From: an uncultured virus (IMG/VR IMGVR_UViG_3300025648_000526) | Taxonomy: Duplodnaviria; Heunggongvirae; Uroviricota; Caudoviricetes | Virus record (IMG/VR): IMGVR_UViG_3300025648_000526 | Coordinates: 1 to 64,000 of that record | Reading direction: 5' to 3' (one strand) | Length of the DNA: 64,000 nt | Shown here: piece by piece, positions 14,222 through 32,557 of the stretch | Numbering within the stretch: the first letter of the stretch is position 1 | Layout: every line of letters starts with the position of its first letter | Notes under the pieces: model-generated | The model's input: the letters and a program-made list of their open reading frames with translations, nothing else | Database searches by the model: none | Told to the model about the DNA's origin: nothing | Program-made: the position numbers and the translations under genes

Positions 14222-15933
14222 TTATATTTCAAAAATTACGATGGAAGAATATTCTTTCCACACCTAACGTCTTTACTGAAATTAATTTAGTAAGGTCACC
14301 TAATACTCTAATCATAGGCAAAAATGGTGCAGGTAAATCCACTATTCTTGATGCGCTATGTTTTGGTTTATTTGGTAAACCATTTCGTAAAATACCTAAA
14401 GCATCTTTACTTAATTCTATCAATCAAGCAGAAGGCATTGTTGAAGTAGAATTTTCTATTGGCCAAAAACAATATAAAGTTATTCGTGGTATTAAACCTA
14501 ATACATTTGAAGTTTATCTTAACGGCAAGTTAGTAGACCAAGATGCTAAATCAGTAGACTATCAAGAGCAATTAGAAAAGCATATTCTTAAACTCAATTA
14601 TAAATCATTCACACAAGTGGTTATATTGGGTTCTGCTTCATTTGTTCCGTTCATGCAATTATCACCAGGTGATAGAAGAGCAATCATTGAAGACTTATTA
14701 GATATTCAAATATTCTCAACAATGAATTCTGTTGTTAAAGATAAGATGTCCATTATTAAAGATAGTTATACCAAAAACAAATATGATATGGACTTAACTG
14801 CTGAAAAAATTAAACTTCAGAAAGAGGCCATTGAAGAGCATAAGAAACACAATGATTCAGAAATAGAAAAAAAGAAAAACGAAATAGAAACATCAGAGCA
14901 ACAAATAGCACAATTACTTGAAGACTGTGTTTTAGTCCAAAAGCACATTGATGTATTACAAAGTAAGATTAATGATAAACTTAGCATTGAAACGAAATCT
15001 AGAAAACTTCTACAACTTGAAGCTAAATTAGAATCTAATGTTAAAAAAATTGAAAAGGATATAACATTTTATGAAGAAAACGACAACTGCCCAACCTGTA
15101 AACAGAATATCGAGGAGTCTTTTAGAACAGAGCAAGTTGATACTCGAAGGACAAAACTTGGTGAAATCACAACAGGACTCCAAGGACTCGCATCCCAAAT
15201 TGAATCAGCTAATAGAAGAATTATTGAAATCCAAGGAATAATTAAACATATTCAAGAACACAATAATGAGATTGTTAAACACAACTCTACAATATCTGCT
15301 GTTCAAACATATATTAGTAAATTACAAACAGAAATACAAGACCTAACATCTCATAAAGATAACCTTGAAGATGAGAATGCTAAATTAAAAGAACTTAAAG
15401 AAGCTCTTGCTGAATTGATTGCAAAACAGGAAGAATTATCTGTTGAAAAACAATATCTAGAAATTGCTTCATCATTATTAAAAGATACAGGTATCAAAAC
15501 AAAGATTATTCGCCAATACTTACCTATCATGAATAAATTGATTAATAAGTATTTGGCTGCAATGGATTTCTTCGTGAATTTTAATATCAATGAGAATTTT
15601 GAAGAAACAATTAAATCTAGACACCGAGATGAATTTAGTTATGCTAATTTTTCAGAAGGCGAAAAGATGAGAATTGATTTGGCACTATTATTTACATGGC
15701 GCCAAATTGCTAAACTAAAGAATTCTACAAATACCAATCTATTAATATTAGACGAAGTGTTTGATTCTTCTTTAGACGGTGTAGGTACGGAAGAGTTTTT
15801 AAAACTAATACACGATATGCGAACTGATACGAATGTATTTGTCATCTCTCACAAAGGTGACCAATTGTTTGATAAGTTCCGTTCAATAATCAAATTTGAG
15901 AAAATTAATAACTTTAGTCAGGTGGCAAAATGA
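14218..15933 (+). CDS. gp46: Recombination ATPase gp46 (Rad50-like)
   Basis: GKNGAGKS, CPTC zinc hook, FSEGEKMRIDL and LILDEVFD motifs. Confidence 0.97.
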   Translation: MIIFQKLRWKNILSTPNVFTEINLVRSPNTLIIGKNGAGKSTILDALCFGLFGKPFRKIPKASLLNSINQAEGIVEVEFSIGQKQYKVIRGIKPNTFEVYLNGKLVDQDAKSVDYQEQLEKHILKLNYKSFTQVVILGSASFVPFMQLSPGDRRAIIEDLLDIQIFSTMNSVVKDKMSIIKDSYTKNKYDMDLTAEKIKLQKEAIEEHKKHNDSEIEKKKNEIETSEQQIAQLLEDCVLVQKHIDVLQSKINDKLSIETKSRKLLQLEAKLESNVKKIEKDITFYEENDNCPTCKQNIEESFRTEQVDTRRTKLGEITTGLQGLASQIESANRRIIEIQGIIKHIQEHNNEIVKHNSTISAVQTYISKLQTEIQDLTSHKDNLEDENAKLKELKEALAELIAKQEELSVEKQYLEIASSLLKDTGIKTKIIRQYLPIMNKLINKYLAAMDFFVNFNINENFEETIKSRHRDEFSYANFSEGEKMRIDLALLFTWRQIAKLKNSTNTNLLILDEVFDSSLDGVGTEEFLKLIHDMRTDTNVFVISHKGDQLFDKFRSIIKFEKINNFSQVAK

Positions 15934-16499
15934 GTGATGAAATAAAATTTAATACGGAAGAATTAGCAAAACCAACCTTAACAAAGGTACCAGTTGAAAC
16001 ATTTCAATTGGTTCCTGAAACACATCCCTTACTTAAACAGGTTTTACCAGAGTTTGATTTCTCTAAACCTCCTGTTGATCCAAATAAATTCGCTTCTACA
16101 TTGGTAGAAACTTGTAAGGCAAATCACGGTATTGGTTTATCAGCCAATCAATGTGGATTTAATCATAGAGTTTTTGTTATGGGTGCTAATGATGATTATG
16201 TGGCATTTTATAATCCAAAGATTACCAAATTTGAAGGCGAAGCACATATGATTGAAGGATGCTTATCTTTTCCTTTCTTGGCATTACGAATCACTAGACC
16301 TGAAACGATTGAGGTTGAATACCAAGATTTCAATGGTGAAAAGAAAACTGCCAAATTTAGTGGATTATCTGCTCGTTGTTTCCAACATGAATTGGATCAC
16401 ATGAACGGCCTTGTATACACATCAAAAGCAAAACCACTAGCTTTGAAAATGGGTATGGATAAAAGAAATAAAATTTTGAAGAAAATAGGATTAAAATAA
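15930..16499 (+). CDS. def: Peptide deformylase
   Basis: GIGLSANQ, EGCLS and QHELDH motifs. Confidence 0.95.
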   Translation: MSDEIKFNTEELAKPTLTKVPVETFQLVPETHPLLKQVLPEFDFSKPPVDPNKFASTLVETCKANHGIGLSANQCGFNHRVFVMGANDDYVAFYNPKITKFEGEAHMIEGCLSFPFLALRITRPETIEVEYQDFNGEKKTAKFSGLSARCFQHELDHMNGLVYTSKAKPLALKMGMDKRNKILKKIGLK

Positions 16500-17764
16500 T
16501 GGCAACACCAATTGAATTTGTAGAGAAACAATGGTCAGAATGGCAAGAGGCCAATCCTCCATCATCTATTGAACATATTGACGAAGCAGAGCTCAAAGAA
16601 AAACTTATTTCTGATTTGACTTATGCATCTCAAATGGATGTTAAAGAATATACTCTCTATCAAAAATGGTGTGAAGTGAAAGAAAGATATCCAACTCAAA
16701 TGGTGTCTACACTATTTGGTGAAGAACTTCAAATGGTTAATCCAGAACAAGAAAAGATTATTAAAGATGTTAAAACAAACTTTTGGATGCCAGATAATCC
16801 AGATGATTATGAAAAGTTACAACCTATATTAGAATTATCTAATGGAGATTTGGCAGAAAGATGGAATGCTATTAGAACATTCTCATCAACAATGAAAAAT
16901 AATTCAAATATTGGCAGAAATCTATTCTATACAGTAAAAGATGAACCTACTGGCAAATATCTTGGTGTGATTTGTATCTCATCTGACTTTCTTGATTTGA
17001 CACCAAGAGATAAAGCAATTGGTTGGTCTAGAGATGTTAAAACACAACAAGGCATGATTAATCATACAGCAATTGGTTCAACAATTGTTCCATTACAACC
17101 GCTTGGTTATAATTACATGGGTGGTAAGTTGCTTGCTTTATTATGTTTAGATGATAGAATTCAGAAAGATTGGAAAGAAAGATATGGTGATACTCTTGTG
17201 GCAGTTACCACAACATCACTATATGGTAAAGCAAAAGCTGGTGGGTTATCTCAATATGATGGTCTAGAACATTGGAACGCTATGGGATTCTCATCTGGTT
17301 CTGTTGCCTTTGAACCTAAACGCACAACCTCAAAGATGATATATGATTGGATTAAAGAGAATTATCCACGCAAATACTTTGAATGGTGGGATGCCAAAAA
17401 TACTCAAGGTCTTCCACTTAAGCGTGACCATAAGAACCGTTCATTAAACTTTGCTTATCCAAAACTTGGTATACCTAAGCAACTTATTAGAACAGAGCAT
17501 CAACGTGGTATTTACTTTGCACCACTCTATAACAATACAAACGAATATTTAAGAAAAGAAATTACTGACGACCAGTTGGTTAAATCATTTGATACTTCTA
17601 CTAAAGCACTTACTGATATTTGGAAAACCAAATATGCTAAAGGTAGAATATCAATGCTCAAGAAGAAAGATAAGGTATCTAAAGAATCCTTATTCTATGA
17701 TGACTTAATTTACCTCACTTGGGAAGAAACAAAAGAAAAATATCTTGTTCAAGTTGGTAGATAG
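16499..17764 (+). CDS. DUF4338/DruA-like, Mom-like GNAT-fold protein (paralog 1)
   Basis: GRNLFYTVKD..TGKYLGVI, IVPLQPLGYNYMGGKLLA, TTSLYG and SQYDGL motifs. Confidence 0.6.
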   Translation: MATPIEFVEKQWSEWQEANPPSSIEHIDEAELKEKLISDLTYASQMDVKEYTLYQKWCEVKERYPTQMVSTLFGEELQMVNPEQEKIIKDVKTNFWMPDNPDDYEKLQPILELSNGDLAERWNAIRTFSSTMKNNSNIGRNLFYTVKDEPTGKYLGVICISSDFLDLTPRDKAIGWSRDVKTQQGMINHTAIGSTIVPLQPLGYNYMGGKLLALLCLDDRIQKDWKERYGDTLVAVTTTSLYGKAKAGGLSQYDGLEHWNAMGFSSGSVAFEPKRTTSKMIYDWIKENYPRKYFEWWDAKNTQGLPLKRDHKNRSLNFAYPKLGIPKQLIRTEHQRGIYFAPLYNNTNEYLRKEITDDQLVKSFDTSTKALTDIWKTKYAKGRISMLKKKDKVSKESLFYDDLIYLTWEETKEKYLVQVGR

Positions 17765-23619: not shown

Positions 23620-24008
23620 TGGCAGACTTATTTAAAGAAGTTATTCCGTCAATATTACAGACAAAAAAGTCAGTCTTACATGATGATGTGGATGTAAAAA
23701 AATACGATGCTTTTATTGTCAACCGAGCGTTGTCCTATCACATGGATTGTGTTCTCCACGCTAATGAGATAAATAAGAATCCTAGCTTAGATAATGATAT
23801 GCAATACCAATATTATCTAAATAATATAAGACCTATGAAACGGAAATTTCAACCGTGGCAGAAATCAGAGGTCATAAAAGACATAGATTCAATCAGGCGA
23901 TATTTTGGTTACTCCAATGAGAAGGCCAAAGAAGCATTAAGAATTTTGACTGACGAACAAATCGCTGAAATAAAAATAAAAACCGATAAAGGCGGGATAA
24001 ACAAATAA
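23619..24008 (+). CDS. gp62: Clamp loader small subunit gp62
   Basis: FIVNRALSY and YFGYSNEKAKEAL motifs; follows gp44. Confidence 0.93.
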   Translation: MADLFKEVIPSILQTKKSVLHDDVDVKKYDAFIVNRALSYHMDCVLHANEINKNPSLDNDMQYQYYLNNIRPMKRKFQPWQKSEVIKDIDSIRRYFGYSNEKAKEALRILTDEQIAEIKIKTDKGGINK

Positions 24009-24415
24009 TGATTTCAATTACAAGTTTAGTTGAAGTTACACTAGCAGAAAAAGACGACTTCTTAAAGGTTCGTGAAACCTTAACTCGCATTGGTGTTGCT
24101 TCAAAGAAAGATAGAACATTGTATCAATCGTGCCATATATTACATAAACAAGGCAGATACTATATTGTTCACTTTAAAGAATTATTTGCATTAGACGGTA
24201 AACCTACAGATATCACAGAGAATGATTTATCTCGTAGAAATGCTATTGCTAAACTATTACAAGATTGGGAATTAGTAAAAATTGTAGATAAAAAATCTAT
24301 TGAAACACCAGAACCAATCTTTTTATCTCAAGTAAAAATCATCTCACATAAAGAAAGAGATGAGTGGAATTTAGTACCAAAATATAACATTGGTAAAAAA
24401 GCACAAAGCTATTGA
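24008..24415 (+). CDS. regA: Translational repressor RegA
   Basis: DDFLKVRETLTRIGVAS and LYQSCHILHKQGRYYIVHFKELFALDG motifs. Confidence 0.97.
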   Translation: MISITSLVEVTLAEKDDFLKVRETLTRIGVASKKDRTLYQSCHILHKQGRYYIVHFKELFALDGKPTDITENDLSRRNAIAKLLQDWELVKIVDKKSIETPEPIFLSQVKIISHKERDEWNLVPKYNIGKKAQSY

Positions 24416-24442
24416 CATTGTAATTGAGGTGTGATATAAATA
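24412..24442 (+). promoter_or_regulatory. Overlapping sigma70 and T4 late promoter upstream of hsp20
   Basis: TTGACA-17 nt-TATAAA, where the -10 is part of TATAAATA. Confidence 0.65.
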
Positions 24443-24445
24443 TAA

Positions 24446-24506
24446 GTGTAAGGTGCCTTCGGGGTCTTACATTTTTTTAACTCGCTTAATAGGAGATTTT
24501 AACATG
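24446..24506 (+). promoter_or_regulatory. Structured hsp20 5' UTR, candidate ROSE-like RNA thermometer
   Basis: UUCG hairpin, then CTCGCT-taat-AGGAG able to pair over the Shine-Dalgarno sequence. Confidence 0.55.
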
Positions 24507-24917
24507 ACAGCTTTACAAGGCTATCGGCATTTATTGCCTCAAACAGTAGGATTTGACCATTTATTTTCAACACTTGATGAAATGGTGGATTTAAAGACTA
24601 CTTCATACCCACCCTACAATATCAAAAAAATTGACGAAACAAACTATAGTATAGATGTTGCGATTGCAGGCTTCAATAAAGATGAAGTCGAAATCCGTGT
24701 AGAAGGTGACAAACTTACCGTAATAGGTGAAACTATCAATGAAGACACTTCAACCTACTTACACAAGGGAATTGCTAATAGAAACTTTACACTAAACTTT
24801 ACATTATCAGATACAGTTGTTGTTGGTGATGCAGAGTTTAATAATGGTATATTATCTATTGGTTTAGAGAACGTAATACCAGATTCTAAAAAACCAAGAA
24901 CAATTACTATTAAATAA
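24504..24917 (+). CDS. Small heat-shock protein (Hsp20/IbpA family)
   Basis: VGFD, YPPYNI, AIAGF, YLHKGIANRNF and NGILSI motifs. Confidence 0.95.
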   Translation: MTALQGYRHLLPQTVGFDHLFSTLDEMVDLKTTSYPPYNIKKIDETNYSIDVAIAGFNKDEVEIRVEGDKLTVIGETINEDTSTYLHKGIANRNFTLNFTLSDTVVVGDAEFNNGILSIGLENVIPDSKKPRTITIK

Positions 24918-24922
24918 GTTTT

Positions 24923-24996
24923 TACCCTGTAGTGTAACGGTAGCATAAGAGCCTCCAAATCTCTCGGTCGCAGTTCAAATCTGTGCAGGGTAGCCA
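24923..24996 (+). tRNA. tRNA-Trp(CCA)
   Basis: Acceptor taccctg/cagggta, G discriminator and encoded CCA; D arm; anticodon loop CTCCAAA; T arm cgcag-TTCAAAT-ctgtg. Confidence 0.9.
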
Positions 24997-25022
24997 ATTA
25001 ACTAAAAGAAAGAAGGTAAAAA

Positions 25023-25379
25023 ATGGACTCTTGGGGTTATCACTTAATTTTGGATGTAAGAGGTTGTGATATTGAAAAAGCAACTAATCCAGATTATATT
25101 CGTGATTTTACTAAAGAATTAGTTAAACGAATAGATATGAAACCTTATGGAGAACCCCAAGTGGTTCATTTTGCTGATAATACTGATTTAGCAGGTTGGA
25201 CAGTATTACAACTAATTCATACCTCTAATATTACTGCTCATTTCTGTGATATTAATGGTGACTTGTATTTAGATGTGTTTTCATGTAAGGAATTCGATGG
25301 AGATGTCGTGGTTCAGTTCCTAAACGATTCTTTTAAACCATTGAGAATAACCTCTAGATATCTTTACAGAACAGCGTAG
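25023..25379 (+). CDS. speD: S-adenosylmethionine decarboxylase proenzyme
   Basis: WGYHLILD, I.TSNITAHF and YLDVFSCK motifs. Confidence 0.88.
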   Translation: MDSWGYHLILDVRGCDIEKATNPDYIRDFTKELVKRIDMKPYGEPQVVHFADNTDLAGWTVLQLIHTSNITAHFCDINGDLYLDVFSCKEFDGDVVVQFLNDSFKPLRITSRYLYRTA

Positions 25380-25435
25380 ACCTAAATAATGCTGTGTGGG
25401 ATACCTAAAGATTATGCTATTAGTTGGAAATCTAA

Positions 25436-25966
25436 ATGCAAATCAGAATATCCAAATGTCCAGACAGTAAGAATTTCAGACCATATGTTAAAAGGGCTGT
25501 GGAATTCTATGGACAAGAGCTTATTAAAAATAAAAGACTATATAACAACATCTATGTTGATATTAAGTTTGACTCTAAAATAGATGCGTTTGGATATGCA
25601 TCCATTGAAGGATACAATACTTTAGGTAAACCTAGAGAGTTTCTTATAGAGGTTCATCCTGGTATTAGTGCTAAAGACATATTGTCTACATTAGCACATG
25701 AAATGGTTCATGTTCATCAGTATGCTACAGGGCTATTAACTGATGTAGAAAAAGACATAACTAGATGGTGTGGTAAAAAGATTGATCCAGATAAACTAGA
25801 CTATTATAGTCATCCATGGGAAATAGAAGCACATGGAAAAGAAATAGGTTTGCTTGCCAAATTTGTAGTAAAAGAACAGTTATGGAATATATTCGATAAA
25901 GTGAATGATCCATCTGCTCCAATCACAGATAAACCATTAGGTTGGAAAAATTTGGTAAACAAATAA
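25436..25966 (+). CDS. Zincin-like metallopeptidase-domain protein
   Basis: TLAHEMVHVHQY (HExxH) and PWEIEA motifs. Confidence 0.75.
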   Translation: MQIRISKCPDSKNFRPYVKRAVEFYGQELIKNKRLYNNIYVDIKFDSKIDAFGYASIEGYNTLGKPREFLIEVHPGISAKDILSTLAHEMVHVHQYATGLLTDVEKDITRWCGKKIDPDKLDYYSHPWEIEAHGKEIGLLAKFVVKEQLWNIFDKVNDPSAPITDKPLGWKNLVNK

Positions 25967-25973
25967 CTTATGC

Positions 25974-26002
25974 TTGACATTATGTGTGAGTTATGAGATA
26001 AT
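25974..26002 (+). promoter_or_regulatory. Sigma70 promoter upstream of the tRNA-Gly-like gene
   Basis: TTGACA-17 nt-GATAAT. Confidence 0.7.
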
Positions 26003-26029
26003 AATAAAACTGAAAGATTAAATGATTAT

Positions 26030-26097
26030 GCGGTGGGTTGTAGAACAAGCATTTCTTCCCGTTATGTTGCTTTGTGCAAGTCAAAGACACCGCTCCA
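26030..26097 (+). tRNA. Non-canonical tRNA-Gly(TCC)-like RNA
   Basis: GCGGTG/CACCGC acceptor with T discriminator and CCA; mini D arm ttgt-aga-acaa; loop CTTCCCG; T arm ctttg-TGCAAGT-caaag. Confidence 0.72.
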
Positions 26098-26103
26098 AAT
26101 TCG

Positions 26104-26307
26104 ATGGCAGCTAAAAACGATATCACCGGCGATTCAATCTCAACTAAAGTAAATTCAAAAGAATATACTGATAATTGGGATTTGATTTGGGGTAAAAAGA
26201 AAAAAGAAAGTCGTATGGATATTATAGGCCAAAACGGTAATGACGGTTCACATTATGAGGAGATAGAAAATGGCAACAGCAGCGAGAGTCCATCCGGGCA
26301 AACGTAA
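26104..26307 (+). CDS. Small hypothetical protein
   Basis: MAAKNDITGDSI..K...Y.DNWD.IW pattern; ATG 26104 avoids overlap with the tRNA-like gene. Confidence 0.55.
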   Translation: MAAKNDITGDSISTKVNSKEYTDNWDLIWGKKKKESRMDIIGQNGNDGSHYEEIENGNSSESPSGQT

Positions 26308-26512
26308 AGCAGACCCAATGAAACATAAAACGGGCAAACCTAGATTAGGTCCACTAAATCTAAAACAATTAACAGACTTAATAGAAAAAACTCAAGTCAA
26401 AAAAATCAAAGCAAAATTTCAAAGAGAATTGGAACGAAGAAATATTTTGGCAGTAAAGAAACAAGGTTTTAAAGTAAAGAAAAATCAAGTATCAATTAAT
26501 GAAAATCACTAG
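26270..26512 (+). CDS. Small basic hypothetical protein
   Basis: GAGGAG RBS; Lys/Arg-rich. Confidence 0.55.
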   Translation: MATAARVHPGKRKADPMKHKTGKPRLGPLNLKQLTDLIEKTQVKKIKAKFQRELERRNILAVKKQGFKVKKNQVSINENH

Positions 26513-26533
26513 TAACATTTAAGTAATAAATCC

Positions 26534-26562
26534 TTTACTTTTCGTTACATTCCTTATATAAT
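26534..26562 (+). promoter_or_regulatory. Sigma70 promoter for pqqA
   Basis: TTTACT-17 nt-TATAAT. Confidence 0.7.
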
Positions 26563-26611
26563 AATGGTGTTAGAGTAGAAATTCTAACATAACCTTTAAA
26601 GGAGATATACC

Positions 26612-26683
26612 ATGTGGACATCACCAGCTGCAACTGAAATGCGTTTTGGCTTCGAAGTTACTATGTATGTAATGAACAAGTAA
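26612..26683 (+). CDS. pqqA: Pyrroloquinoline quinone precursor peptide PqqA (23 aa, MWTSPAATEMRFGFEVTMYVMNK)
   Basis: Hand translation; MW..P and RFGFEVTMY with the E-x-x-x-Y core; AAGGAG RBS; own promoter and terminator. Confidence 0.95.
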   Translation: MWTSPAATEMRFGFEVTMYVMNK

Positions 26684-26705
26684 TTAACGATTCAGTTTAC
26701 TAAAT

Positions 26706-26737
26706 AAAACGAGAGCCTAAAAACTCTCGTTTTTTTA
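26706..26737 (+). terminator. Rho-independent terminator after pqqA
   Basis: aaaacgagag-cctaaaaa-ctctcgtttt plus U-run. Confidence 0.85.
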
Positions 26738-26757
26738 TTTCCAAAAAGGACATCATC

Positions 26758-27054
26758 ATGAAATACCTTTTGATTGTTTTACTTTTAATATTATCAACAG
26801 TAGCAATGTCAGAAGAATATTTGGTGATGTATTATAATCCTCATGTTAGGATTGTTTTATCAAAAGATACTTGTTTATTTAAAGAATTAGATGGTAAGAG
26901 AGCGGCTGCTCAGAGGTCTGACGGACAGGTTCTTCAAGGTTGTTGGAATCCATCAAAAGACGGAAAACAAATCACAATTAAATGGCACAATCCAGCAGTG
27001 CCTGATGATTCATCAACATTTGAAACAGAAAGATTTATTCCTACAACAGAATAA
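26758..27054 (+). CDS. Small secreted hypothetical protein
   Basis: Signal peptide MKYLLIVLLLILSTVAMS; two Cys; AGGA RBS. Confidence 0.65.
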   Translation: MKYLLIVLLLILSTVAMSEEYLVMYYNPHVRIVLSKDTCLFKELDGKRAAAQRSDGQVLQGCWNPSKDGKQITIKWHNPAVPDDSSTFETERFIPTTE

Positions 27055-29112
27055 TTATTTTGAGGTGGCACGATAAGTGCCGTCCCAATTTGCAGGTAAT
27101 CCTTCTTCCATTCTTTCTATCATTTTAGAATAGTATTCTTTTATGGTAACATCATCATTGTTTAACATTTTTCTAGCCCAATCAATTGCTTTATCCCAAT
27201 TACCACGATAATATTCTTTTAGATATTCATTGTGCATGTAAGCAATAGTTTTGCCTACTGTATAAATTTTGACACCTTCTGTTTTACCTTTAACTGCTAT
27301 GTTGTCTAATTCAACAACGCTATAATTATCTTTAACTAATTCAGCAGTTAATGGACCAAGAATAATCTTAACGCCATAGGGTTTAGATTGTCCTTCAAGT
27401 CTACTTGATAGGTTGACTGCATCTCCGAGGCAAGTGTAATCAAAACGATAGCGGCTACCCATATTACCAACAACAACACTACCAGTATTGAGCCCAATCC
27501 CCATTCCGAACGGCGGTATGCCTTCTTTTTCAATTTCTTTATTAAATTCATCTAAATCTCCTAACATTTCTAAAGCTGTTTTTACGGCATTGATGGCATG
27601 GTCTTTATCATCAAGAGGTGCATTCCAAAAAGCCATCTGAGCATCACCAATATACTTATCTAGCGTTCCATTATTATCTAAAATCTTTTGTGTCATAGCA
27701 GTCATATATCGGTTCATGATAGAAGTTAAACCTTGAACGTCTTTACCATAGTGTTCTGATATTGTGGTGAATCCACGAACATCAGTAAACATAATAGTTA
27801 AATCTTTTGTTTCACCACCGAGTTTTAATAATTCTGGATTCTTTTGTAATTTTTCAACAAGTGCTGGTGATAGGTACGTTCCAAATTGTTTTTTGATTTG
27901 TAATTTTTGATTTAACTCACTTATAAATTTAACAGTATACGCATGAGCATAAACAAGACAAAGAGTAAGAATAGGAAAGATACAGTCCACCAAATAATTG
28001 TAATGATTAAAGGTATAATGAGAACCATAATATAAAGAAACAATAATAGTAACAATAAAGATAATAGCATATTTCCACCTCGATAATAAAATTAATAATA
28101 TAGACATCATAATTGTGAATAAAAGTTCGGCACCAGTAGCCCAATCAGGTCGTTCTATATTGACATTATTAGCTAAGGTGCCGATTACAGCAGCCTGCAC
28201 ATCTTGAGGCCATACTGAACCTATACTTGTAGGTAAAGGATTGCCTAATCCTGAAGCAGTTACTCCAACAATAACTATTCCTTTGTTAAAGTTTTTTGGT
28301 AGATTTACTGCTGAAACAGAATTTGATTTTTGTGACCAATCAACCCATATACGACCAAGTGAGTCTGTTGCAATTGGTCTAAAACTTGGTATTCGCATCT
28401 TCTCAACTCCGTTCTCATTAAGTTTGACTTGAAATGTTGAGTCACCAGACATAACCCTTAACACTTCTAAAGATACACTTGGGTAAATATTACCATTATA
28501 TCCAACGAACAAAGGTATTCTACGATTAACACCGTCTATTTCAGGTAATGTGTTTGTTATTCCAACTCCAGCAGCCGAAGATTCTAATGACGGAATGTTA
28601 GCAATAATACCTGGATAATTTAAAATAGTATTGATGTTTTCTGAACCAATAATAACAGAACCAGGTTTCTTTGCTGTATTTTTATTTGATTGTGAAGGAG
28701 AGTTTACTAAAATTACAGGATGGTCTTTGATTGTATCTTCTAATGCTTTGTCACCACCTAATCGGTCGGCTTCAGGCATCATTATATTCCATACAACTAA
28801 ACCGGCATTATGAGCATACAACTGAGCAATTAAATTGGCATATTGGTCACGTTTAAATGGCCATTGACCATAACGGTCTAAAGTGTTTTCATCAATATTA
28901 ACCGTATAGATATTATTAACGGTTTGAGTTTTGCCTGAAATGAGAGTGTCAAAATATCGTAATCGGATTGATTCGATAAAGTTAGAATTGGAAACAGCAA
29001 TCACTAACGCTAAGGTTAGTAATGCTGTCCATGGTGATAATAGATATTTCTTAAACAAGTGATAATAAAGTTTGTGTTGCTGTAACCAACCATCTATAGG
29101 CAGTTTCATCAT
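27055..29112 (-). CDS. CHASE2-domain membrane adenylate cyclase (class III)
   Basis: CHASE2 motifs IDE.TL..YGQWPF.R and DGVNRRIPL; TM helices; FTDVRGFT, LDKYIGDA and GDAVNLSSRLE catalytic motifs; start uncertain (possibly TTG 29058). Confidence 0.93.
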   Translation of the reverse strand: MMKLPIDGWLQQHKLYYHLFKKYLLSPWTALLTLALVIAVSNSNFIESIRLRYFDTLISGKTQTVNNIYTVNIDENTLDRYGQWPFKRDQYANLIAQLYAHNAGLVVWNIMMPEADRLGGDKALEDTIKDHPVILVNSPSQSNKNTAKKPGSVIIGSENINTILNYPGIIANIPSLESSAAGVGITNTLPEIDGVNRRIPLFVGYNGNIYPSVSLEVLRVMSGDSTFQVKLNENGVEKMRIPSFRPIATDSLGRIWVDWSQKSNSVSAVNLPKNFNKGIVIVGVTASGLGNPLPTSIGSVWPQDVQAAVIGTLANNVNIERPDWATGAELLFTIMMSILLILLSRWKYAIIFIVTIIVSLYYGSHYTFNHYNYLVDCIFPILTLCLVYAHAYTVKFISELNQKLQIKKQFGTYLSPALVEKLQKNPELLKLGGETKDLTIMFTDVRGFTTISEHYGKDVQGLTSIMNRYMTAMTQKILDNNGTLDKYIGDAQMAFWNAPLDDKDHAINAVKTALEMLGDLDEFNKEIEKEGIPPFGMGIGLNTGSVVVGNMGSRYRFDYTCLGDAVNLSSRLEGQSKPYGVKIILGPLTAELVKDNYSVVELDNIAVKGKTEGVKIYTVGKTIAYMHNEYLKEYYRGNWDKAIDWARKMLNNDDVTIKEYYSKMIERMEEGLPANWDGTYRATSK

Positions 29113-29299
29113 CTGCTAAAGCTTGTTGATTTTTTACATCTACGATTTCTTTAACAAGAAATGAATACTCTTCGTCAGATAAATCACCTGCTTGATGTTG
29201 CTCGGTAATTTTTACCAACTCAGCAGATAATTTACCAAGAACACCTGGATGTCCTGATTTTTCTCTTAATTCTTCTAATATTTTCATCTTTGTCTCCAT
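29051..29299 (-). CDS. Small hypothetical protein in the curli/cyclase operon
   Basis: ORF overlapping both neighbours in a tightly packed operon. Confidence 0.55.
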   Translation of the reverse strand: METKMKILEELREKSGHPGVLGKLSAELVKITEQHQAGDLSDEEYSFLVKEIVDVKNQQALADDETAYRWLVTATQTLLSLV

Positions 29300-29640
29300 G
29301 ATTCTGAAATAACTTCTACTCTAGATTGTGCAATTGTTAATGCTGATTGGCAAAATAACATACTCTTTGAATCTTTTGCTTTTGTCAGTTCTTCTTTTAA
29401 CTTATCAAAGCTTGGTGATTGTGGGTCATTTCTAAGCGCTGAATAAACTTTGATATGTTGTATTTTTGAAGAGAGGTCTGGCCAAGTTGATTTATTGGCA
29501 CAATCTAAATTGTCTACTACGATTTTAATATCTACCAATTGGTCAAACATAACAGGGTCATGTTTAAGTGGCATTATTGATGTAATAGTTGAACAAGCGG
29601 TTAATGTAAGTAATGCAATAAGTGATATAATTTTTTTCAT
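29284..29640 (-). CDS. Putative lipoprotein
   Basis: MKKIISLIALLTLTAC lipobox. Confidence 0.7.
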   Translation of the reverse strand: MKKIISLIALLTLTACSTITSIMPLKHDPVMFDQLVDIKIVVDNLDCANKSTWPDLSSKIQHIKVYSALRNDPQSPSFDKLKEELTKAKDSKSMLFCQSALTIAQSRVEVISESWRQR

Positions 29641-29647
29641 GATTTAT

Positions 29648-30712
29648 TTAGTTGCTCTGTTGTTTAATAGTTATACTATTGGTTGTTTGGTCTTGATTTT
29701 TCAAATTTACTGTAACACCATTTTGTATGATATTTATATTATATCCTTTGTCTTTATCTATTAATACTGTAGCACTATCTTTAACCGTTCTTTGTATCAT
29801 CCAATAAGTATTTTTATCAAAAATATACACTTGATTTAAAGAGTTATAACCTACCACAAAAGTTGCTAATATCATATTATCAAGAGCATTTGTTAAATAA
29901 TTTGTGTCTAACGGATTTACATCTAATTCATTAAACCCAGCATAAGGGTCTTTAAAAACTTTTGCATCTAAAGCGTTTTGTTCTAATCCCGTAAATTCTA
30001 AAGCAGAACCTGATTTATTGATTATTTCAGCTTGTATTCTTTCAATGATTTGTTTTGGTGGTTTAACAATAAGCATATTATCAATAGATGATTCAGATAA
30101 TGCTAACAAAACAGGTTTTAATGGTTTAATTTCGGATGATTTTGTTACTGTAGCTTGAAACGCTTGGTTTAAAACTACTTTACCCATGGCTGTGCTAACT
30201 TCAATTGAACCAACTGAACCATCTGGATTTGGTAACAGAATAATAAGAGATTGTCCTATCTCATCTACAGTCATTGTGAATGCTGTACCACGAACAGCAA
30301 CTGAAGCGGTCGGAGTATTGATTGCTACATTTTTATTATTTTCGTGTGCGATATTACCAGATGCATAACGAACAGTTCCCATTGTTACATTGAGAGCTAA
30401 TTTACCTGCACCTTTTTTATTGGGGTCATAGACAAATTCGTCTATAAGAAGTTTTGAATGTTCTGTGACTTTTACTTGAGTTTTATCTTCAAATGTAATG
30501 CCTACTATTCCATTGCCTGTTTGAACAATATCATTACTATCTATATTTGATTTAGGTTTAGCCTCTATTACATCTTTATTTCTAGTAATAGAGGCTGGAC
30601 CTTTTTGTTCAGTTATAGAACCAATTACCGCCCAACTAGTGTTGGATAACAGAAACAGAAGCGTTGTTACCAGTAAGATTAACAATCGCACTATTTGGGT
30701 TGGTCGTACCAT
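29648..30712 (-). CDS. FecR-domain periplasmic protein
   Basis: Signal peptide; D.VQTG.G..GITFED.T.V.V.EHS.L and INTPTASVAVRGT.F motifs. Confidence 0.88.
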   Translation of the reverse strand: MVRPTQIVRLLILLVTTLLFLLSNTSWAVIGSITEQKGPASITRNKDVIEAKPKSNIDSNDIVQTGNGIVGITFEDKTQVKVTEHSKLLIDEFVYDPNKKGAGKLALNVTMGTVRYASGNIAHENNKNVAINTPTASVAVRGTAFTMTVDEIGQSLIILLPNPDGSVGSIEVSTAMGKVVLNQAFQATVTKSSEIKPLKPVLLALSESSIDNMLIVKPPKQIIERIQAEIINKSGSALEFTGLEQNALDAKVFKDPYAGFNELDVNPLDTNYLTNALDNMILATFVVGYNSLNQVYIFDKNTYWMIQRTVKDSATVLIDKDKGYNINIIQNGVTVNLKNQDQTTNSITIKQQSN

Positions 30713-31343
30713 CTTGAGTCACACTTATATTATTTGAATTACCAATATTGTTGATACTAATACTATTACCTTTGCCTGCACCTGTACCATTAGCACCTGT
30801 TTGACTTGTGTTAATAGAGTTACTATTGCCTGCAATCGATATAGTATCTGTAACATTTTTACTGTTTATTTTACTTGTGATAGAGTTATTATTTCCTACA
30901 GCAGTAATACTATAGTTATAACTTCCTGAATCTCTCAATGTACCAATATCTAATATAGAATTATTATTGCTACCTGAAAATGATAAATTTAAATTACCAT
31001 TGTCGGTACCAAAGTTTCCATAATTCAATACAACACCGTTACTATTACCATCTTGAGATATTACTCCTGTAGAACCACCACCAACAAAATTACCTGTGAT
31101 AGAGTTGTTCATACCGTTTTGTGTGATACCTAAATTAATACTGTTACCATCAATCACAAATGATGGACTACCAACATTAGTAGGATCTCCTACCGTGTTG
31201 TTAGAACCTGTTTGTGTAATTGATACTGTAGAATTATCAGCGTTAGTTTGGTCAATATAAACACTATTACCTCCACTATCGACTGCCAAAGCACTAAATG
31301 CTAATAACAAACCCATCACAAAAGTGATAAGCTTACTTTTCAT
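30636..31343 (-). CDS. Secreted curlin-repeat (CsgA/CsgB-like) protein
   Basis: Signal peptide; repeated I.Q.G.NN/SN units (SITQTGSNN, GITQNGMNN, VISQDGNSN, SVTQDG); AAGGAG RBS; directly downstream of csgG. Confidence 0.72.
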   Translation of the reverse strand: MKSKLITFVMGLLLAFSALAVDSGGNSVYIDQTNADNSTVSITQTGSNNTVGDPTNVGSPSFVIDGNSINLGITQNGMNNSITGNFVGGGSTGVISQDGNSNGVVLNYGNFGTDNGNLNLSFSGSNNNSILDIGTLRDSGSYNYSITAVGNNNSITSKINSKNVTDTISIAGNSNSINTSQTGANGTGAGKGNSISINNIGNSNNISVTQDGTTNPNSAIVNLTGNNASVSVIQH

Positions 31344-32115
31344 TCTTTTTCTCCTTAAATTGCCACATACCTTTTTTTTCACCTTGAATAATCAATTGCT
31401 CTACCGCCAGGTCTGTAGCTGCTTTTATGGCGTGTATAGAAGCCTCTGTTTGAGATATTCCTATCTCTTGTTCAAAATTTTGTGTTCCATTATCAAAAAA
31501 CTTAAATATAGCTACACCTGCTGTATAACTCAATATGGTTTTTTGAGCGTTTACTGTTAATAGCACTTCACCTGTTTGTGTGCTAATTGCTCTAATACTT
31601 ACAGTCACCACATCTTCTTGATATTGTGTGTCTGGTCCAATTCCTAACCAACGAACACCAATACCACCTGTTCTTATATTTGTATCATAACTTATAATTC
31701 CGCCTTCAATAATCATACCTGCATACAACATAGGTCTGATTCCAGAAGGATCTCTTGCTTCATCTCTTGCTGAACGAATTAGTTGTCTTTCTTTTAATAA
31801 GTTGTCTATACCAACTCGTTCTACTATTCTAAACCATTTTCCATCACCAGCATCTTCTAATGATTTTAATAATACTGTTTCACCGCCTTGTGTTACAGCT
31901 GATGATAATTTAGCAATTGTAGCAGAATCTTTTCTTTGACCAGTTTTATCAGCAAAACTATAAACAGCTACAACTACTTTACCTTTAGCAGGTTCAGGTA
32001 ATGGAGCTCTAGCCCATTTCATTGGCATAATTTCTGGTTCTTTTTTAATAACATTCATTGGCGGTGTGCAGCCAATTATTGTTATACACATAAGTGCTAT
32101 TAATATTTTTTTCAT
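31333..32115 (-). CDS. csgG: Curli secretion pore lipoprotein CsgG
   Basis: Lipobox IIGC; VAVYSFADKTGQRK, SSAVTQG, WFRIVER.GIDNLLKERQLIR and EGGIISYD motifs. Confidence 0.93.
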   Translation of the reverse strand: MKKILIALMCITIIGCTPPMNVIKKEPEIMPMKWARAPLPEPAKGKVVVAVYSFADKTGQRKDSATIAKLSSAVTQGGETVLLKSLEDAGDGKWFRIVERVGIDNLLKERQLIRSARDEARDPSGIRPMLYAGMIIEGGIISYDTNIRTGGIGVRWLGIGPDTQYQEDVVTVSIRAISTQTGEVLLTVNAQKTILSYTAGVAIFKFFDNGTQNFEQEIGISQTEASIHAIKAATDLAVEQLIIQGEKKGMWQFKEKKNEK

Positions 32116-32116
32116 A

Positions 32117-32557
32117 TTAGAAACTTAAAGTTCCAATAGGAATACTAACTTGTGTTACATTACCATTTTGATCCTTAACAGTCATGTTAATCATGTCAGC
32201 TGTTTTAGTGTATGTAATAGTATTGCCTTCAATGGTAACAGTTCCACTATTTTGTGGATTTTCACCAAACAGATTATTAATTAATTGTGTAGATAGTTGA
32301 GCATAGACTCTGCTCTCAAAGTTAGTCAAGAACTTGGCTAATATAGTATTACCTGCAGCTGTAGCAGCATCAATTGCAGCTTGTTTTTTGGCCGCATAAA
32401 TTGCTTGTTTACGAGTGTATTCAGTATTCTCTATTGTTTGAACGTGAGAAGAGTATCCTATACCTGAAAAAGAAGGAGATTTAAATTGAAACGTCTGTTC
32501 TGCATATGCGCTACTTGACAGTATCGTCAGTATGAGAATTCTTATTGTTTTCTTCAT
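32117..32557 (-). CDS. csgF: Curli assembly protein CsgF-like
   Basis: Signal peptide, then FQFKSPSFSG; F..NFESRVYAQLS; C-terminal T.VSIP; adjacent to csgG. Confidence 0.82.
   Translation of the reverse strand: MKKTIRILILTILSSSAYAEQTFQFKSPSFSGIGYSSHVQTIENTEYTRKQAIYAAKKQAAIDAATAAGNTILAKFLTNFESRVYAQLSTQLINNLFGENPQNSGTVTIEGNTITYTKTADMINMTVKDQNGNVTQVSIPIGTLSF

What the first reader, a model, noticed from the sequence alone, without database searches (positions are those of the whole stretch)
26030..26097. Non-canonical tRNA-Gly(UCC) that looks built for glycyl donation rather than translation
Seen: a 68-nt cloverleaf 28 nt downstream of a TTGACA-17-GATAAT promoter. It keeps the bacterial GlyRS identity elements (G1-C72, C2-G71, G3-C70, U73, anticodon CC, encoded CCA). 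It loses ribosome-related features: the D loop is only 3 nt with no GG, the T loop reads G-TGC instead of G-TTC, position 37 is a pyrimidine (loop CTTCCCG), and the anticodon stem has U-U mismatches. Known (from memory, to verify): staphylococcal non-proteinogenic tRNA-Gly species, which feed FemXAB transferases, also lack the D-loop GG and carry GUGC in place of GTPsiC. Inference: the phage encodes a glycyl carrier reserved for a non-ribosomal aminoacyl transferase.
Basis: partly seen in the sequence, partly recalled or inferred. Interest (0 to 1): 0.85.

Follow-up and report, generated by a model that had tools for sequence, protein, structure and literature searches.

The report
Phage mini glycine-tRNA paralogue gene
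This freshwater T4-like phage carries a real, conserved gene for a shrunken 68-base glycine tRNA that keeps the marks read by the glycine-charging enzyme but breaks the rules of codon-reading tRNAs, much like the cell-wall glycine tRNAs of staphylococci, so it probably works off the ribosome in a role still unknown.

Summary
ARAGORN and the Rfam tRNA model miss it.

It is neither chance nor a pseudogene. Pattern scans and two covariance models place it in a family of 64-69-nt RNAs in at least 45 uncultured phage contigs, roughly nine sequence types. Covariation supports the fold: 95.6% of cells paired against 73.0% in shuffles (0 of 500), with 16 of 23 pairs changed on both sides.

It has a 3-bp D hairpin, an 8-pair anticodon helix closing a 5-nt loop, and a 1-2-nt variable region.

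All 18 distinct members keep G1-C72, C2-G71, G3-C70, G4-C69, U73, C35, C36 and CCA. Position 34 takes all four bases.

The loops CUUCCCG and UGCAAGU match staphylococcal non-proteogenic tRNA-Gly.

In relatives the RNA sits beside canonical tRNA-Gly. No Fem-type transferase turned up in five phage records.

Best reading: a GlyRS-charged, poorly decoding glycyl-tRNA with an unknown partner.

This scan noted the same kind before on other DNA (e1-6116360).

The parts
25974..26002 (+). Sigma-70-type promoter: -35 TTGACA (25974-25979), 17-nt spacer, extended -10 TG-n-GATAAT (-10 at 25997-26002)
   Evidence: 11 of 12 matches, the best of 16 sites in 24000-28000. Family lineages B and F also have TTGACA-17-TATAGT / TAGAAT directly upstream.
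26003..26029 (+). Short leader between the -10 hexamer and G1 of the RNA (about 20 nt of transcript, presumably removed by RNase P)
   Evidence: It has 1 change in 27 nt against the 90% lineage. Processing is inferred, not shown.
26030..26097 (+). Mini tRNA-Gly(UCC) paralogue, 68 nt. Acceptor 26030-26036 with 26087-26093 (G7.A66 unpaired). D hairpin 26037-26039 with 26044-26046, loop 26040-26043. Linker A 26047. Anticodon helix 26048-26054 with 26062-26068, plus C32-G38 (26055 with 26061). Loop 26056-26060, anticodon UCC 26057-26059, C37 at 26060. Variable G 26069. T stem 26070-26074 with 26082-26086, T loop 26075-26081. U73 at 26094. CCA 26095-26097.
Evidence: Model R2, built without this copy, scores it 68.8 bits, E 1e-16. 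Covariation.
26104..26307 (+). Downstream small ORF (67 aa, starts MAAKNDI), probably co-transcribed. It is not a conserved partner of the RNA.
   Evidence: 508 relatives in viral contigs. In 51 loci printed, only the 2 of the window's own clade have the element upstream. Other family lineages have different downstream genes.
24923..24996 (+). tRNA-Trp(CCA), the only canonical tRNA in the record. It shows that this phage clade has lost the large tRNA array of its relatives.
   Evidence: Relatives carry up to 14 tRNAs within the fetched loci.

Best explanation
The element is a functional gene for a compact tRNA-Gly paralogue and belongs to a conserved phage family.

Shown:
- The RNA family exists in many phage contigs.
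- Its fold is kept by compensatory changes: a 7-position acceptor stem, a 3-bp D hairpin joined directly to the acceptor stem, a 7-bp anticodon helix extended by a Watson-Crick 32-38 pair, a 1-2-nt variable region, a 5-bp T stem and an encoded CCA.
- Its invariant positions are exactly the known determinants of bacterial alpha2beta2 GlyRS.

Inferred:
- It is transcribed from its own promoter and trimmed by RNase P.
- It is glycylated by the host GlyRS. The 7+3 stacked pairs replace the usual 5+1+4 layers and so keep the L shape that this enzyme needs.
- The closed 5-nt loop, C37 (or G33, or a 6-nt loop, in other lineages), G55, the missing G18G19 and the missing U8 make it a poor substrate for ribosomal decoding. 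It therefore acts off the ribosome as a glycyl-tRNA.

What it feeds or binds is unknown. It could be a glycyl donor, or a decoy for proteins that read the tRNA-Gly acceptor end.
For: Family and fold:
- 41 of 43 loci from one 5'-half pattern hold a member, and 6 of them hold a second tandem copy.
- Further members sit in L009, L013, L017, L021, L175 and G001.
- 95.6% of cells are paired against 73.0% in shuffles (0 of 500). 16 of 23 pairs changed on both sides. Slid controls pair 34-50%.
- RNAalifold returns the same structure.

Glycine identity:
- G1-C72, C2-G71, G3-C70 and G4-C69 are each 18 of 18.
- U73, C35, C36 and CCA are 18 of 18, while position 34 is U 12, C 4, G 1, A 1 (read from the alignment).
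- These match the determinants in PMC10464925 (abstract and section 7 read). That paper also shows that GlyRS needs the L shape.

Against decoding:
- The 32-38 pair is always pairable, with 5 pair types.
- C37 occurs in 12 of 18, G33 in 4 of 18, and a 6-nt loop in 2 of 18.
- Among 150 distinct ARAGORN tRNAs of the same phage loci, U33 is 150/150, purine-37 148/150, 32-38 is never C-G, A-U or G-C, GG in the D region 147/150, and TGC T loop 1/150.
- Members coexist with canonical tRNA-Gly. The anticodon is the same UCC in L318 and G001; in L009/L013 and L017/L021 the neighbour is UCC but the member bears CCC or ACC.
- CCC-bearing members would read GGG, which is 1.4% of glycine codons in this phage.

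Other support:
- The loops are identical to those of staphylococcal non-proteogenic tRNA-Gly. PMC7826273 reports that those tRNAs bind EF-Tu and ribosomes poorly.
- This clade kept the gene, with a strong promoter, while losing the tRNA array.
Against: - No expression, charging, EF-Tu or ribosome data exist for any member.
- tRNAPyl and mitochondrial tRNA-Ser(UCN) show a similar compaction and still decode (PMC7609411, passages).
- The members lie in tRNA arrays. Their anticodon often differs from that of the neighbouring canonical tRNA-Gly (UCC+GCC, UCC+CCC, UCC+ACC), which would also fit a decoding role.
- Three lineages have A37 and U32-A38, as decoders do.
- The window's own copy is the only member with two mismatches (U.U) in the anticodon helix. 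Its MFE z-score is unremarkable at -0.91, so this copy could be slightly degenerate.
- Its identity to the 90% lineage (68 of 68) is not significant: overall identity is 91.3%, with 12 identical runs of 75 nt or more in 6.5 kb.
- The alignment used for pair counts was fitted to the model structure.
Confidence: 0.55

Rival explanations
1. It is a compact but fully working decoder: a tRNA-Gly with a tRNAPyl-like reduced core that supplies glycine codons during infection.
For: - The L-shape length is preserved (7+3 pairs).
- It sits inside tRNA arrays.
- Its anticodon is often complementary to the adjacent canonical tRNA-Gly.
- tRNAPyl (no or one linker nucleotide, 4-5-nt D loop, 6-bp anticodon stem, no G18G19 or T-Psi-C) decodes with the normal machinery (PMC7609411).
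Against: - Selection keeps 32-38 paired. C37, G33 or a 6-nt loop is present. None of these occurs in 150 canonical tRNAs of the same phages.
- In L318 and G001 it duplicates the neighbouring canonical UCC tRNA.
- CCC and A34 variants serve rare or unusual decoding needs.
- The phage's main glycine codon is GGT at 63%, which UCC does not serve.
Confidence: 0.25
2. One reading: a glycyl carrier reserved for a non-ribosomal aminoacyl transferase, phage- or host-encoded.
For: - The design is the same as the only tRNAs known to be specialised for glycyl donation (PMC7826273).
- Only the GlyRS determinants are invariant, and wobble position 34 drifts freely.
Against: - FemAB and Acetyltransf_6 are absent from 5 family-bearing records, including a complete 172-kb genome. 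The single 9.6-bit hit is a Rad50-like ATPase.
- No L/F-transferase, CDPS or aminoacyl-lipid synthase family appeared among 79 window ORFs.
- No gene is consistently adjacent to the RNA.
- The host is probably Gram-negative.
Confidence: 0.15
3. It is a decoy or sponge. It is an abundant early RNA that presents a tRNA-Gly acceptor end (and, once charged, glycyl-CCA). That end is offered to host defence toxins or other factors that read it, and so protects the translating tRNA-Gly pool.
For: - The acceptor pairs 1-4, U73 and the encoded CCA are invariant.
- Three lineages have a strong dedicated promoter.
- The gene was retained when the tRNA array was lost.
- The toxSAS FaRel2 selects tRNA-Gly through acceptor pairs 1, 2, 4 and 5 and is linked to anti-phage immunity. 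The same preprint's Discussion cites GNAT toxins (AtaT, TacT) as reading the acceptor stem in a similar bipartite way and notes that phages counter tRNA-targeting defences with their own tRNAs (bioRxiv 10.1101/2024.07.05.602228, passages).
Against: - This is purely inferential. No such toxin is known in the presumed hosts.
- Pair 5-68 here is U-A. In FaRel2's preferred substrates it is purine-pyrimidine.
- A decoy would not obviously need a conserved anticodon arm unless charging matters.
Confidence: 0.2
4. It is a relic of the lost tRNA array, or merely a structured 5' leader or processing signal for the downstream small ORF.
For: - The window's copy lies between a promoter and an ORF with no terminator in between.
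- It has two U.U mismatches.
- Standard detectors reject it.
Against: - The same RNA occurs in other contexts, with different downstream genes or inside tRNA arrays.
- Its stems covary.
- A model trained without this copy scores it at 68.8 bits.
Confidence: 0.05

Closest known systems
Non-proteogenic tRNA-Gly isoacceptors NP1-NP3 of Staphylococcus aureus / S. epidermidis (glycyl donors for FmhB, FemA, FemB; PMC7826273)
   Same: - UCC anticodon in a CUUCCCG loop, with a C32-G38 pair and C37.
- T loop UGCAAGU/UGCAAAU, with G in place of the U that becomes pseudouridine.
- No G18G19.
- GCGG...CCGC-U-CCA acceptor end.
- Coexistence with canonical tRNA-Gly.
   Different: - Staphylococcal NP tRNAs are full size (75 nt, 4-bp D stem, 8-nt D loop, U8, 5+1-bp anticodon stem). 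This RNA is 68 nt, with a 3-bp D hairpin and a 7+1-bp anticodon helix.
- The T-stem pairs differ from the weak A49-U65, U50-A64, A51-U63 set.
- No Fem enzymes are present, and the host is a different, probably Gram-negative, bacterium.
- Model R1 scores NP tRNAs (39-46 bits) little above canonical phage tRNA-Gly (22-40 bits). Common descent is therefore not shown, and convergence is likely.
tRNAPyl (M. barkeri, M. alvus) and mammalian mitochondrial tRNA-Ser(UCN): compact-core tRNAs (PMC7609411)
   Same: - No or one nucleotide between the acceptor and D stems.
- A 4-5-nt D loop.
- A lengthened anticodon stem and a very short variable region.
- In tRNAPyl, no G18G19 or T-Psi-C.
   Different: - Those tRNAs keep U33, purine 37 and an open 7-nt loop, and they decode.
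- This RNA has a 3-bp D stem, a 7-bp anticodon helix with 32-38 paired, glycine identity, and is phage-encoded.
Canonical phage tRNA-Gly(UCC/GCC) of the same T4-like phage arrays
   Same: Glycine acceptor end and NCC anticodon. Often lies 3-9 nt away in the same array.
   Different: The canonical copies have GG in the D loop, a TTCGATT T loop, a CUUCCAA-type loop, and are 72-74 nt long. ARAGORN calls them.
Phage tRNAs that counter tRNA-targeting defences (as cited in bioRxiv 10.1101/2024.07.05.602228 for PARIS and a retron system)
   Same: A phage-encoded tRNA species kept for a reason other than codon supply.
   Different: Those are working isoacceptors that escape a nuclease. Here decoding itself seems compromised, and no defence system is identified.

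Membership tests
Canonical bacterial elongator tRNA (Rfam RF00005 / ARAGORN) | Reaches the Rfam gathering score (29 bits) or is called by ARAGORN | tested here: not met
   No Rfam tRNA match even at E<=10. ARAGORN is silent at default, ps80 and ps60.
Canonical bacterial elongator tRNA (Rfam RF00005 / ARAGORN) | U8, G18G19, U33, purine 37, open 32-38, T54-Psi55-C56 | tested here: not met
   The window copy has G8, no GG, C37, a C32-G38 pair and G55. Of these marks only U33 and C56 are kept. Contrast with 150 canonical tRNAs of the same phages.
Phage mini tRNA-Gly family (defined here by models R1/R2; noted earlier in this scan as e1-6116360) | High score against a covariance model built from other lineages only | tested here: met
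   68.8 bits, E 1e-16 with R2, which was trained on lineages B, C and D only.
Phage mini tRNA-Gly family (defined here by models R1/R2; noted earlier in this scan as e1-6116360) | Family fold: 3-bp D hairpin, 7+1-bp anticodon helix, 1-2-nt variable region, UGC T loop, encoded CCA, NCC anticodon | tested here: met
   The window copy has 5 of 7 helix pairs plus C32-G38.
Staphylococcal non-proteogenic tRNA-Gly (NP1-NP3) | GlyRS identity set; UGC/UGU in the T loop; D loop without GG; CUUCCCG loop with the stem extended by 32-38 | tested here: met
   PMC7826273 passages.
Staphylococcal non-proteogenic tRNA-Gly (NP1-NP3) | Full-size cloverleaf (about 75 nt, 4-bp D stem with 8-nt loop) and the weak EF-Tu T-stem pairs A49-U65, U50-A64, A51-U63 | tested here: not met
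   The element is 68 nt with a mini D hairpin. Its T stem is C-G, U-A, U-A, U-A, G-C.
Staphylococcal non-proteogenic tRNA-Gly (NP1-NP3) | Occurs with Fem-family glycyl transferases in bacteria that build glycine cross-bridges | tested here: not met
   PF02388 and PF13480 are absent from 5 family-bearing phage records. The host genome could not be examined.
Staphylococcal non-proteogenic tRNA-Gly (NP1-NP3) | Glycylated but with poor EF-Tu and ribosome binding | not testable with these tools
   Needs biochemistry.
tRNA pseudogene / chance cloverleaf | No conservation or covariation beyond close relatives; features no better than shuffled sequence | tested here: not met
tmRNA tRNA-like domain (one- or two-piece) | Alanine identity (G3.U70, A73) and no anticodon arm; detected by ARAGORN or Rfam | tested here: not met
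   The element has G3-C70, U73 and an anticodon hairpin. No tmRNA call.

The most novel reading that the evidence does not exclude
Phages of streamlined aquatic Gram-negative bacteria have independently arrived at the same 'non-proteogenic' tRNA-Gly design as staphylococci, and have shrunk it further. This would point to a still unknown glycyl-tRNA-dependent process during infection. That process could be a new kind of glycyl transferase acting on a phage or host molecule, or a charged-tRNA decoy that disarms acceptor-end-reading defence toxins. Full-size relatives of this design appear to be widespread in other phage contigs.
Probability: 0.4. Interest if true: 0.9.

Novelty: new variant of a known kind. 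Interest (0 to 1): 0.78.

Why it matters
Dedicated non-translating glycyl-tRNAs are so far described as a staphylococcal peculiarity tied to cell-wall synthesis. PMC7826273 calls them a lineage present only in staphylococci.

A conserved phage family with the same loop signatures has four notable properties:
- It is missed by tRNA finders.
- It sits beside canonical tRNA-Gly.
- It is retained when the rest of the tRNA array is lost.
- It is driven by its own strong promoter.

Together these suggest that phages use aminoacyl-tRNA look-alikes for something other than codon supply.

The family also offers a natural minimal substrate for bacterial GlyRS. It also shows that phage tRNA counts based on standard tools miss a class of genes. 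In the cultured pelagiphage Mosig, a related non-canonical glycine tRNA-like gene is annotated as a hypothetical protein.

Tried and rejected
- Single-sequence folding: the cloverleaf is not the MFE and the z-score is -0.91. This was uninformative.
- Close relatives: only two lineages exist, at 100% and 90% identity, in viral and metagenome collections. They have identical elements, and the 75-nt identical run is not unusual (12 such runs in 6.5 kb). No covariation could be drawn from them.
- The upstream regions of 51 homologues of the downstream ORF lack the element outside the window's clade.
- My loose cloverleaf scan found no further copies in 85 relatives' loci. It later proved too strict, because model R1 found members in L009, L013, L017 and L021.
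- Similarity to relatives' tRNAs is best for Gly(UCC), but barely so: 12.5 against 12.0 for Cys and 11.5 for Gln. There is no synteny with the relatives' tRNA-Gly.
- BLAST against cultured phages found nothing.
- Model R1 gave no match in Melnitz or HTVC008M.
- Sequencing runs: no RNA holder listed. Laying 4 DNA runs showed only the 90% lineage's differences outside the element, plus one 885-nt contig (run X12, record 5) aligning to 26027-26101 with 10 substitutions and 5 gap letters. I take this to be another family member, but I could not read it.
- The metagenome records behind L120 and L121 are not held.
- The MAFFT alignment A2, and alignment A4 fitted to R1, placed a gap inside the anticodon helix. 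I replaced them with R2 and A6.
- The FemAB 9.6-bit hit in G005 is a Rad50-like ATPase.
- tmRNA and SAM-SAH readings are rejected.
- Literature searches found no description of such phage RNAs: 'non-proteinogenic tRNA' + phage, 0 papers; bacteriophage + tRNA + 'truncated D-arm', 0 papers; 'phage-encoded tRNA' + tRNAGly, 12 papers, none on this in the 10 listed, listing only. The Melnitz paper does not mention tRNA-Gly. Supplements were not read.

Full report
**Observation**

- It has six Watson-Crick acceptor pairs (G1-C72, C2-G71, G3-C70, G4-C69, U5-A68, G6-C67) and a G7.A66 mismatch.
- It has U73 and an encoded CCA.
- The T arm is 5 bp, closed by G53-C61, with loop UGCAAGU.
- The anticodon loop is CUUCCCG, and the D region has no GG.
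- The promoter TTGACA-17-GATAAT, with TG before the -10, lies at 25974-26002. It is the best of 16 consensus sites in 24000-28000.

Standard tools do not see the element.
- ARAGORN and Rfam report only tRNA-Trp at 24923-24996.
- Rfam's tRNA model gives nothing on 25700-26400 even at E<=10.
- Relaxed ARAGORN finds it only in mitochondrial mode at 80% threshold, among 7 calls in 351 nt.
- The single-sequence fold is unremarkable, with z = -0.91.

**Chance**

I scanned both strands of the window for a loosely defined cloverleaf.
- The criteria were: acceptor at least 6 of 7 pairs, a perfect 5-bp T stem with a 7-nt loop, any 3-4-bp D stem, at least 3 of 5 anticodon-stem pairs, and U33.
- Eight places passed. 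Only tRNA-Trp and this element also end in CCA and carry T54, C56, A58 and G53-C61.
- In 40 first-order Markov surrogates the loose pattern occurred 6.2 times on average, with CCA 0.05 times, with the T marks 0.025 times, and with both never.
- The criteria were chosen after seeing the element, but the margin is large. The element is tRNA-derived.

**Close relatives gave no test**
- The upstream gene (25436-25966, a weak metallopeptidase-like match) has 35 relatives in viral contigs and 50 in metagenome contigs.
- Only two lineages are close, at 99-100% and 90% identity. Both carry the identical 68 nt.
- The two genomes are 91.3% identical overall, with 12 identical runs of 75 nt or more in 6.5 kb. 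The identity therefore proves nothing.
- The ~50%-identity relatives carry arrays of up to 14 tRNAs downstream of the same gene, including canonical tRNA-Gly(UCC).
- The window's clade has lost that array.

**Finding the family**

Degenerate DNA patterns taken from the element were scanned over IMG/VR.
- The 5' pattern matched 48 stretches. Thirteen were the element: 3 of the window's lineage (A) and 10 of a diverged lineage (B).
- A pattern of the anticodon loop, the T loop and the 3' end, and two more 5' patterns, added lineages C, D, E and F.
- A covariance model (R1) then found tandem second copies in lineage F. It also found members next to canonical tRNA-Gly(UCC) in the ~50% relatives (L009, L013, L017, L021), in L175, and in a complete 172-kb genome, G001.
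- Of the 43 loci from the pattern, 41 hold a member and 6 hold two, giving 47 matches.
- Model R2 was trained on lineages B, C and D only. It scores the window's copy at 68.8 bits, E about 1e-16, and finds no second copy in the 72.6-kb record.

**Structure**

The counts below come from the 19-row alignment fitted to R2 (18 distinct rows).
- 95.6% of pair cells are standard pairs, against 73.0 +/- 1.4% when 3' partners are shuffled (0 of 500).
- 16 of 23 pairs show changes on both sides (89 cells against 23.3 in shuffles).
- Sliding the partners by 1-3 columns drops pairing to 34-50%.
- RNAalifold predicts the same fold on its own: 22 pairs, 15 with compensatory changes, covariation term -6.42.

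- The acceptor stem has 7 positions, and position 7-66 is unpaired in 13 of 18 rows.
- A 3-bp hairpin follows directly (G8-C17, U9-A16, U10-A15, 4-nt loop). It is the least tested helix, with compensatory changes only in L175.
- One linker A follows.
- Next is a 7-bp anticodon helix, extended by a 32-38 pair that is pairable in all 18 rows with five pair types (A-U 6, C-G 5, U-A 5, G-C 1, U.G 1).
- The helix closes a 5-nt loop, followed by a 1-2-nt variable region, a 5-bp T stem and CCA.
- The window copy is the only member with unpaired cells in the anticodon helix (two U.U).

The alignment was fitted to the structure, which favours it. The by-eye parses of the raw sequences agree with it.

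**What is conserved**
- G1-C72, C2-G71, G3-C70 and G4-C69 never vary.
- U73, CCA, C35 and C36 are present in 18 of 18 rows.
- Position 34 is U in 12, C in 4, G in 1 and A in 1, so all four glycine anticodons occur.
- This set equals the determinants reported for alpha2beta2 GlyRS: G1-C72, C2-G71, C35, C36, U73, and purine-4:pyrimidine-69 (PMC10464925, abstract).
- That paper also shows that the enzyme needs the L shape. A T-armless variant is not charged, and a D-armless variant is charged very poorly (section 7).
- Seven anticodon-helix pairs plus three D-hairpin pairs give the same number of stacked layers as the usual 5+1+4. I read this, by inference, as selection to keep the anticodon-to-CCA distance.

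**Departure from decoding rules**
- In the family, C37 occurs in 12 of 18 rows, G33 in 4, a 6-nt loop in 2, and U54-G55 in 18. GG is absent from the D region, and G8 is part of a helix.
- Among 150 distinct ARAGORN-called tRNAs from the same phage loci, U33 is 150/150 and purine 37 is 148/150.
- In the same control set 32-38 is C.A, U.A, C.C, U.C, U.U or U.G and never C-G, A-U or G-C. GG in the D region is 147/150, TTC in the T loop 139/150 and TGC 1/150.

**Context**
- In lineages C and D the RNA lies inside tRNA arrays. It sits 3-9 nt before a canonical tRNA-Gly(GCC), a truncated copy of one, or a non-canonical CAU tRNA.
- In L318 a canonical tRNA-Gly(UCC) lies 144 nt further on.
- In L009, L013, L017, L021 and G001 it follows a canonical tRNA-Gly(UCC) by 6-9 nt.
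- Lineages A, B and F have their own TTGACA-17-(G/T)A(T/G)(A/G)(A/G)T promoter 9-27 nt upstream.
- Upstream and downstream protein genes differ between lineages. The small ORF at 26104-26307 is therefore not a conserved partner.
- The window is a T4-like myovirus with portal, gp23, UvsW/X/Y, gp43, gp44/62 and RegA. Its major capsid protein is 65.7% identical to that of Methylophilales phage Melnitz and 63.7% to Pelagibacter phage Mosig.
- Curli-export genes and a pqqA gene point, by inference, to a Gram-negative and possibly methylotrophic host.

**Comparison with staphylococci**
- The pattern, run over one genome per prokaryotic species, matched 49 loci. Of these, 35 are Staphylococcus or Mammaliicoccus, often with 2-3 tandem copies.
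- These are the non-proteogenic tRNA-Gly. They share the CUUCCCG loop, the UGCAAGU/UGCAAAU T loop, a D loop without GG and the same acceptor end.
- PMC7826273 (abstract and passages) reports TGC/TGT in place of TTC, no pseudouridine, a six-pair anticodon stem with a five-base loop, and weak EF-Tu binding. It also reports no ribosome binding in older work, and preferential use by FmhB.
- The phage RNA shares the loop signatures but not the size, the D arm or the T-stem pairs.
- R1 scores NP tRNAs (39-46 bits) only a little above canonical phage tRNA-Gly (22-40 bits). I cannot show common descent, and convergence on one design seems more likely.

**Function**
- Shown: a conserved, structured, tRNA-Gly-derived RNA gene.
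- Inferred: charging by GlyRS and poor decoding.
- The donor idea lacks a partner. FemAB and the FemAB-like GNAT family are absent from five family-bearing records, one of them complete. None of the 79 window ORFs matched a known aminoacyl-tRNA transferase family. However, 56% of this genome is unseen and many ORFs are unassigned.
- Codon supply is a weak motive. Glycine codons in the record are GGT 63.1%, GGA 18.6%, GGC 16.9% and GGG 1.4% (89 ORFs of 100 aa or more, overlaps not removed).
- A decoy role is suggested by work showing that the anti-phage toxSAS FaRel2 picks tRNA-Gly by acceptor pairs 1, 2, 4 and 5. That preprint's Discussion also cites GNAT toxins (AtaT, TacT) as acceptor-stem readers (bioRxiv 10.1101/2024.07.05.602228, passages). 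This is speculation.
- A compact yet decoding tRNA, as tRNAPyl is (PMC7609411, passages), stays a serious rival.

**Novelty**
- My literature searches found no description of such phage RNAs (listings only beyond the papers named). The review of non-canonical tRNAs does not contain the word phage. The Melnitz paper does not mention tRNA-Gly.
- This scan recorded the same kind of RNA in another freshwater T4-like phage (e1-6116360). I saw that note after deriving the family, and it agrees with my reading.

**Limits**
- No expression data are available.
- Contigs from many samples may be the same phage populations, so lineages (about nine) count for more than contigs.
- EF-Tu affinity of the T stems was not evaluated.

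Noticed in passing
window 26612-26683 (+), promoter-like site 26534-26562, terminator-like hairpin 26706-26733: A 23-codon ORF with the look of the PQQ precursor peptide PqqA, as its own small transcription unit. Contigs of many other organisms pile up here in the laid runs (depth up to ~1900 at 26588-26675).
   Followed up: partly
window 27055-32557 (-): CHASE2 adenylate cyclase, FecR-domain protein, curlin-repeat protein, CsgG and CsgF in one block. Earlier notes of this scan call this the published 'viral curli' cassette.
   Followed up: partly
L330:1580-1653 and L322:292-365: An ARAGORN-called tRNA-Met(CAU) right after the mini tRNA-Gly. It also has a UGCAAAU T loop, a D loop without GG and a 1-72 mismatch, which makes it initiator-like. 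It is a second tRNA species with the alternative elbow in these phages.
   Followed up: no
L171-L196 (viral contigs from the pattern): Many full-size (73-79 nt) glycine-type tRNA-like genes in unrelated phage contigs. They have the GUGCAAGUC T arm, D loops without GG and odd anticodon loops (ACC, CCC, GCC or UCC anticodons; G33; 6-nt loops). At the match site in 15 loci examined, ARAGORN called 3 as tRNA-Gly, 2 as tRNA-???, and 10 not at all. Some are tandem pairs.
   Followed up: partly
Pelagibacter phage Mosig MT647606.1 7779-7852 (-), locus L389/L391: A 74-nt glycine-type tRNA-like gene (ACC anticodon, no GG in the D loop, no TTC in the T loop) in a cultured pelagiphage. It is annotated as hypothetical protein Mosig_000011 and lies between the small heat-shock protein and sliding clamp genes.
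   Followed up: partly
L268, L290, L273, L293, L301, L311, L313, L305 (= viral L261): tRNA-Gly genes with the CUUCCCG loop and UGCAA T loop outside staphylococci: Intestinimonas butyriciproducens, a Ruminococcaceae isolate, four Bacillota MAGs, a Chloroflexota MAG, and a mini-type copy in Bradyrhizobium sp. Tv2a-2 (probably a prophage). PMC7826273 describes the lineage as present only in staphylococci.
   Followed up: no
L257:27-94 and 99-169; L175:601-669: Further short (68-71 nt) glycine-type tRNA-like genes with reduced D regions, in other viral contigs. L257 has a tandem pair. L175 bears a GCC anticodon with C37 and a G32-C38 pair.
   Followed up: partly
L317:1573-1620: Directly after the mini tRNA-Gly lies what looks like only the 5' half of a canonical tRNA-Gly(GCC). 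This is an array in decay while the mini gene stays intact.
   Followed up: no
window 15930-16496, 16499-17761 and 40829-41938 (+): A phage peptide deformylase and two ORFs with a DruA (Druantia) domain match.
   Followed up: no
run X12, record 5 (885-nt contig) on window 26027-26101: A contig from another context aligns to just the element, with 10 substitutions and 5 gap letters, all indels in the D/anticodon region. It is probably one more family lineage. Its sequence could not be read.
   Followed up: no
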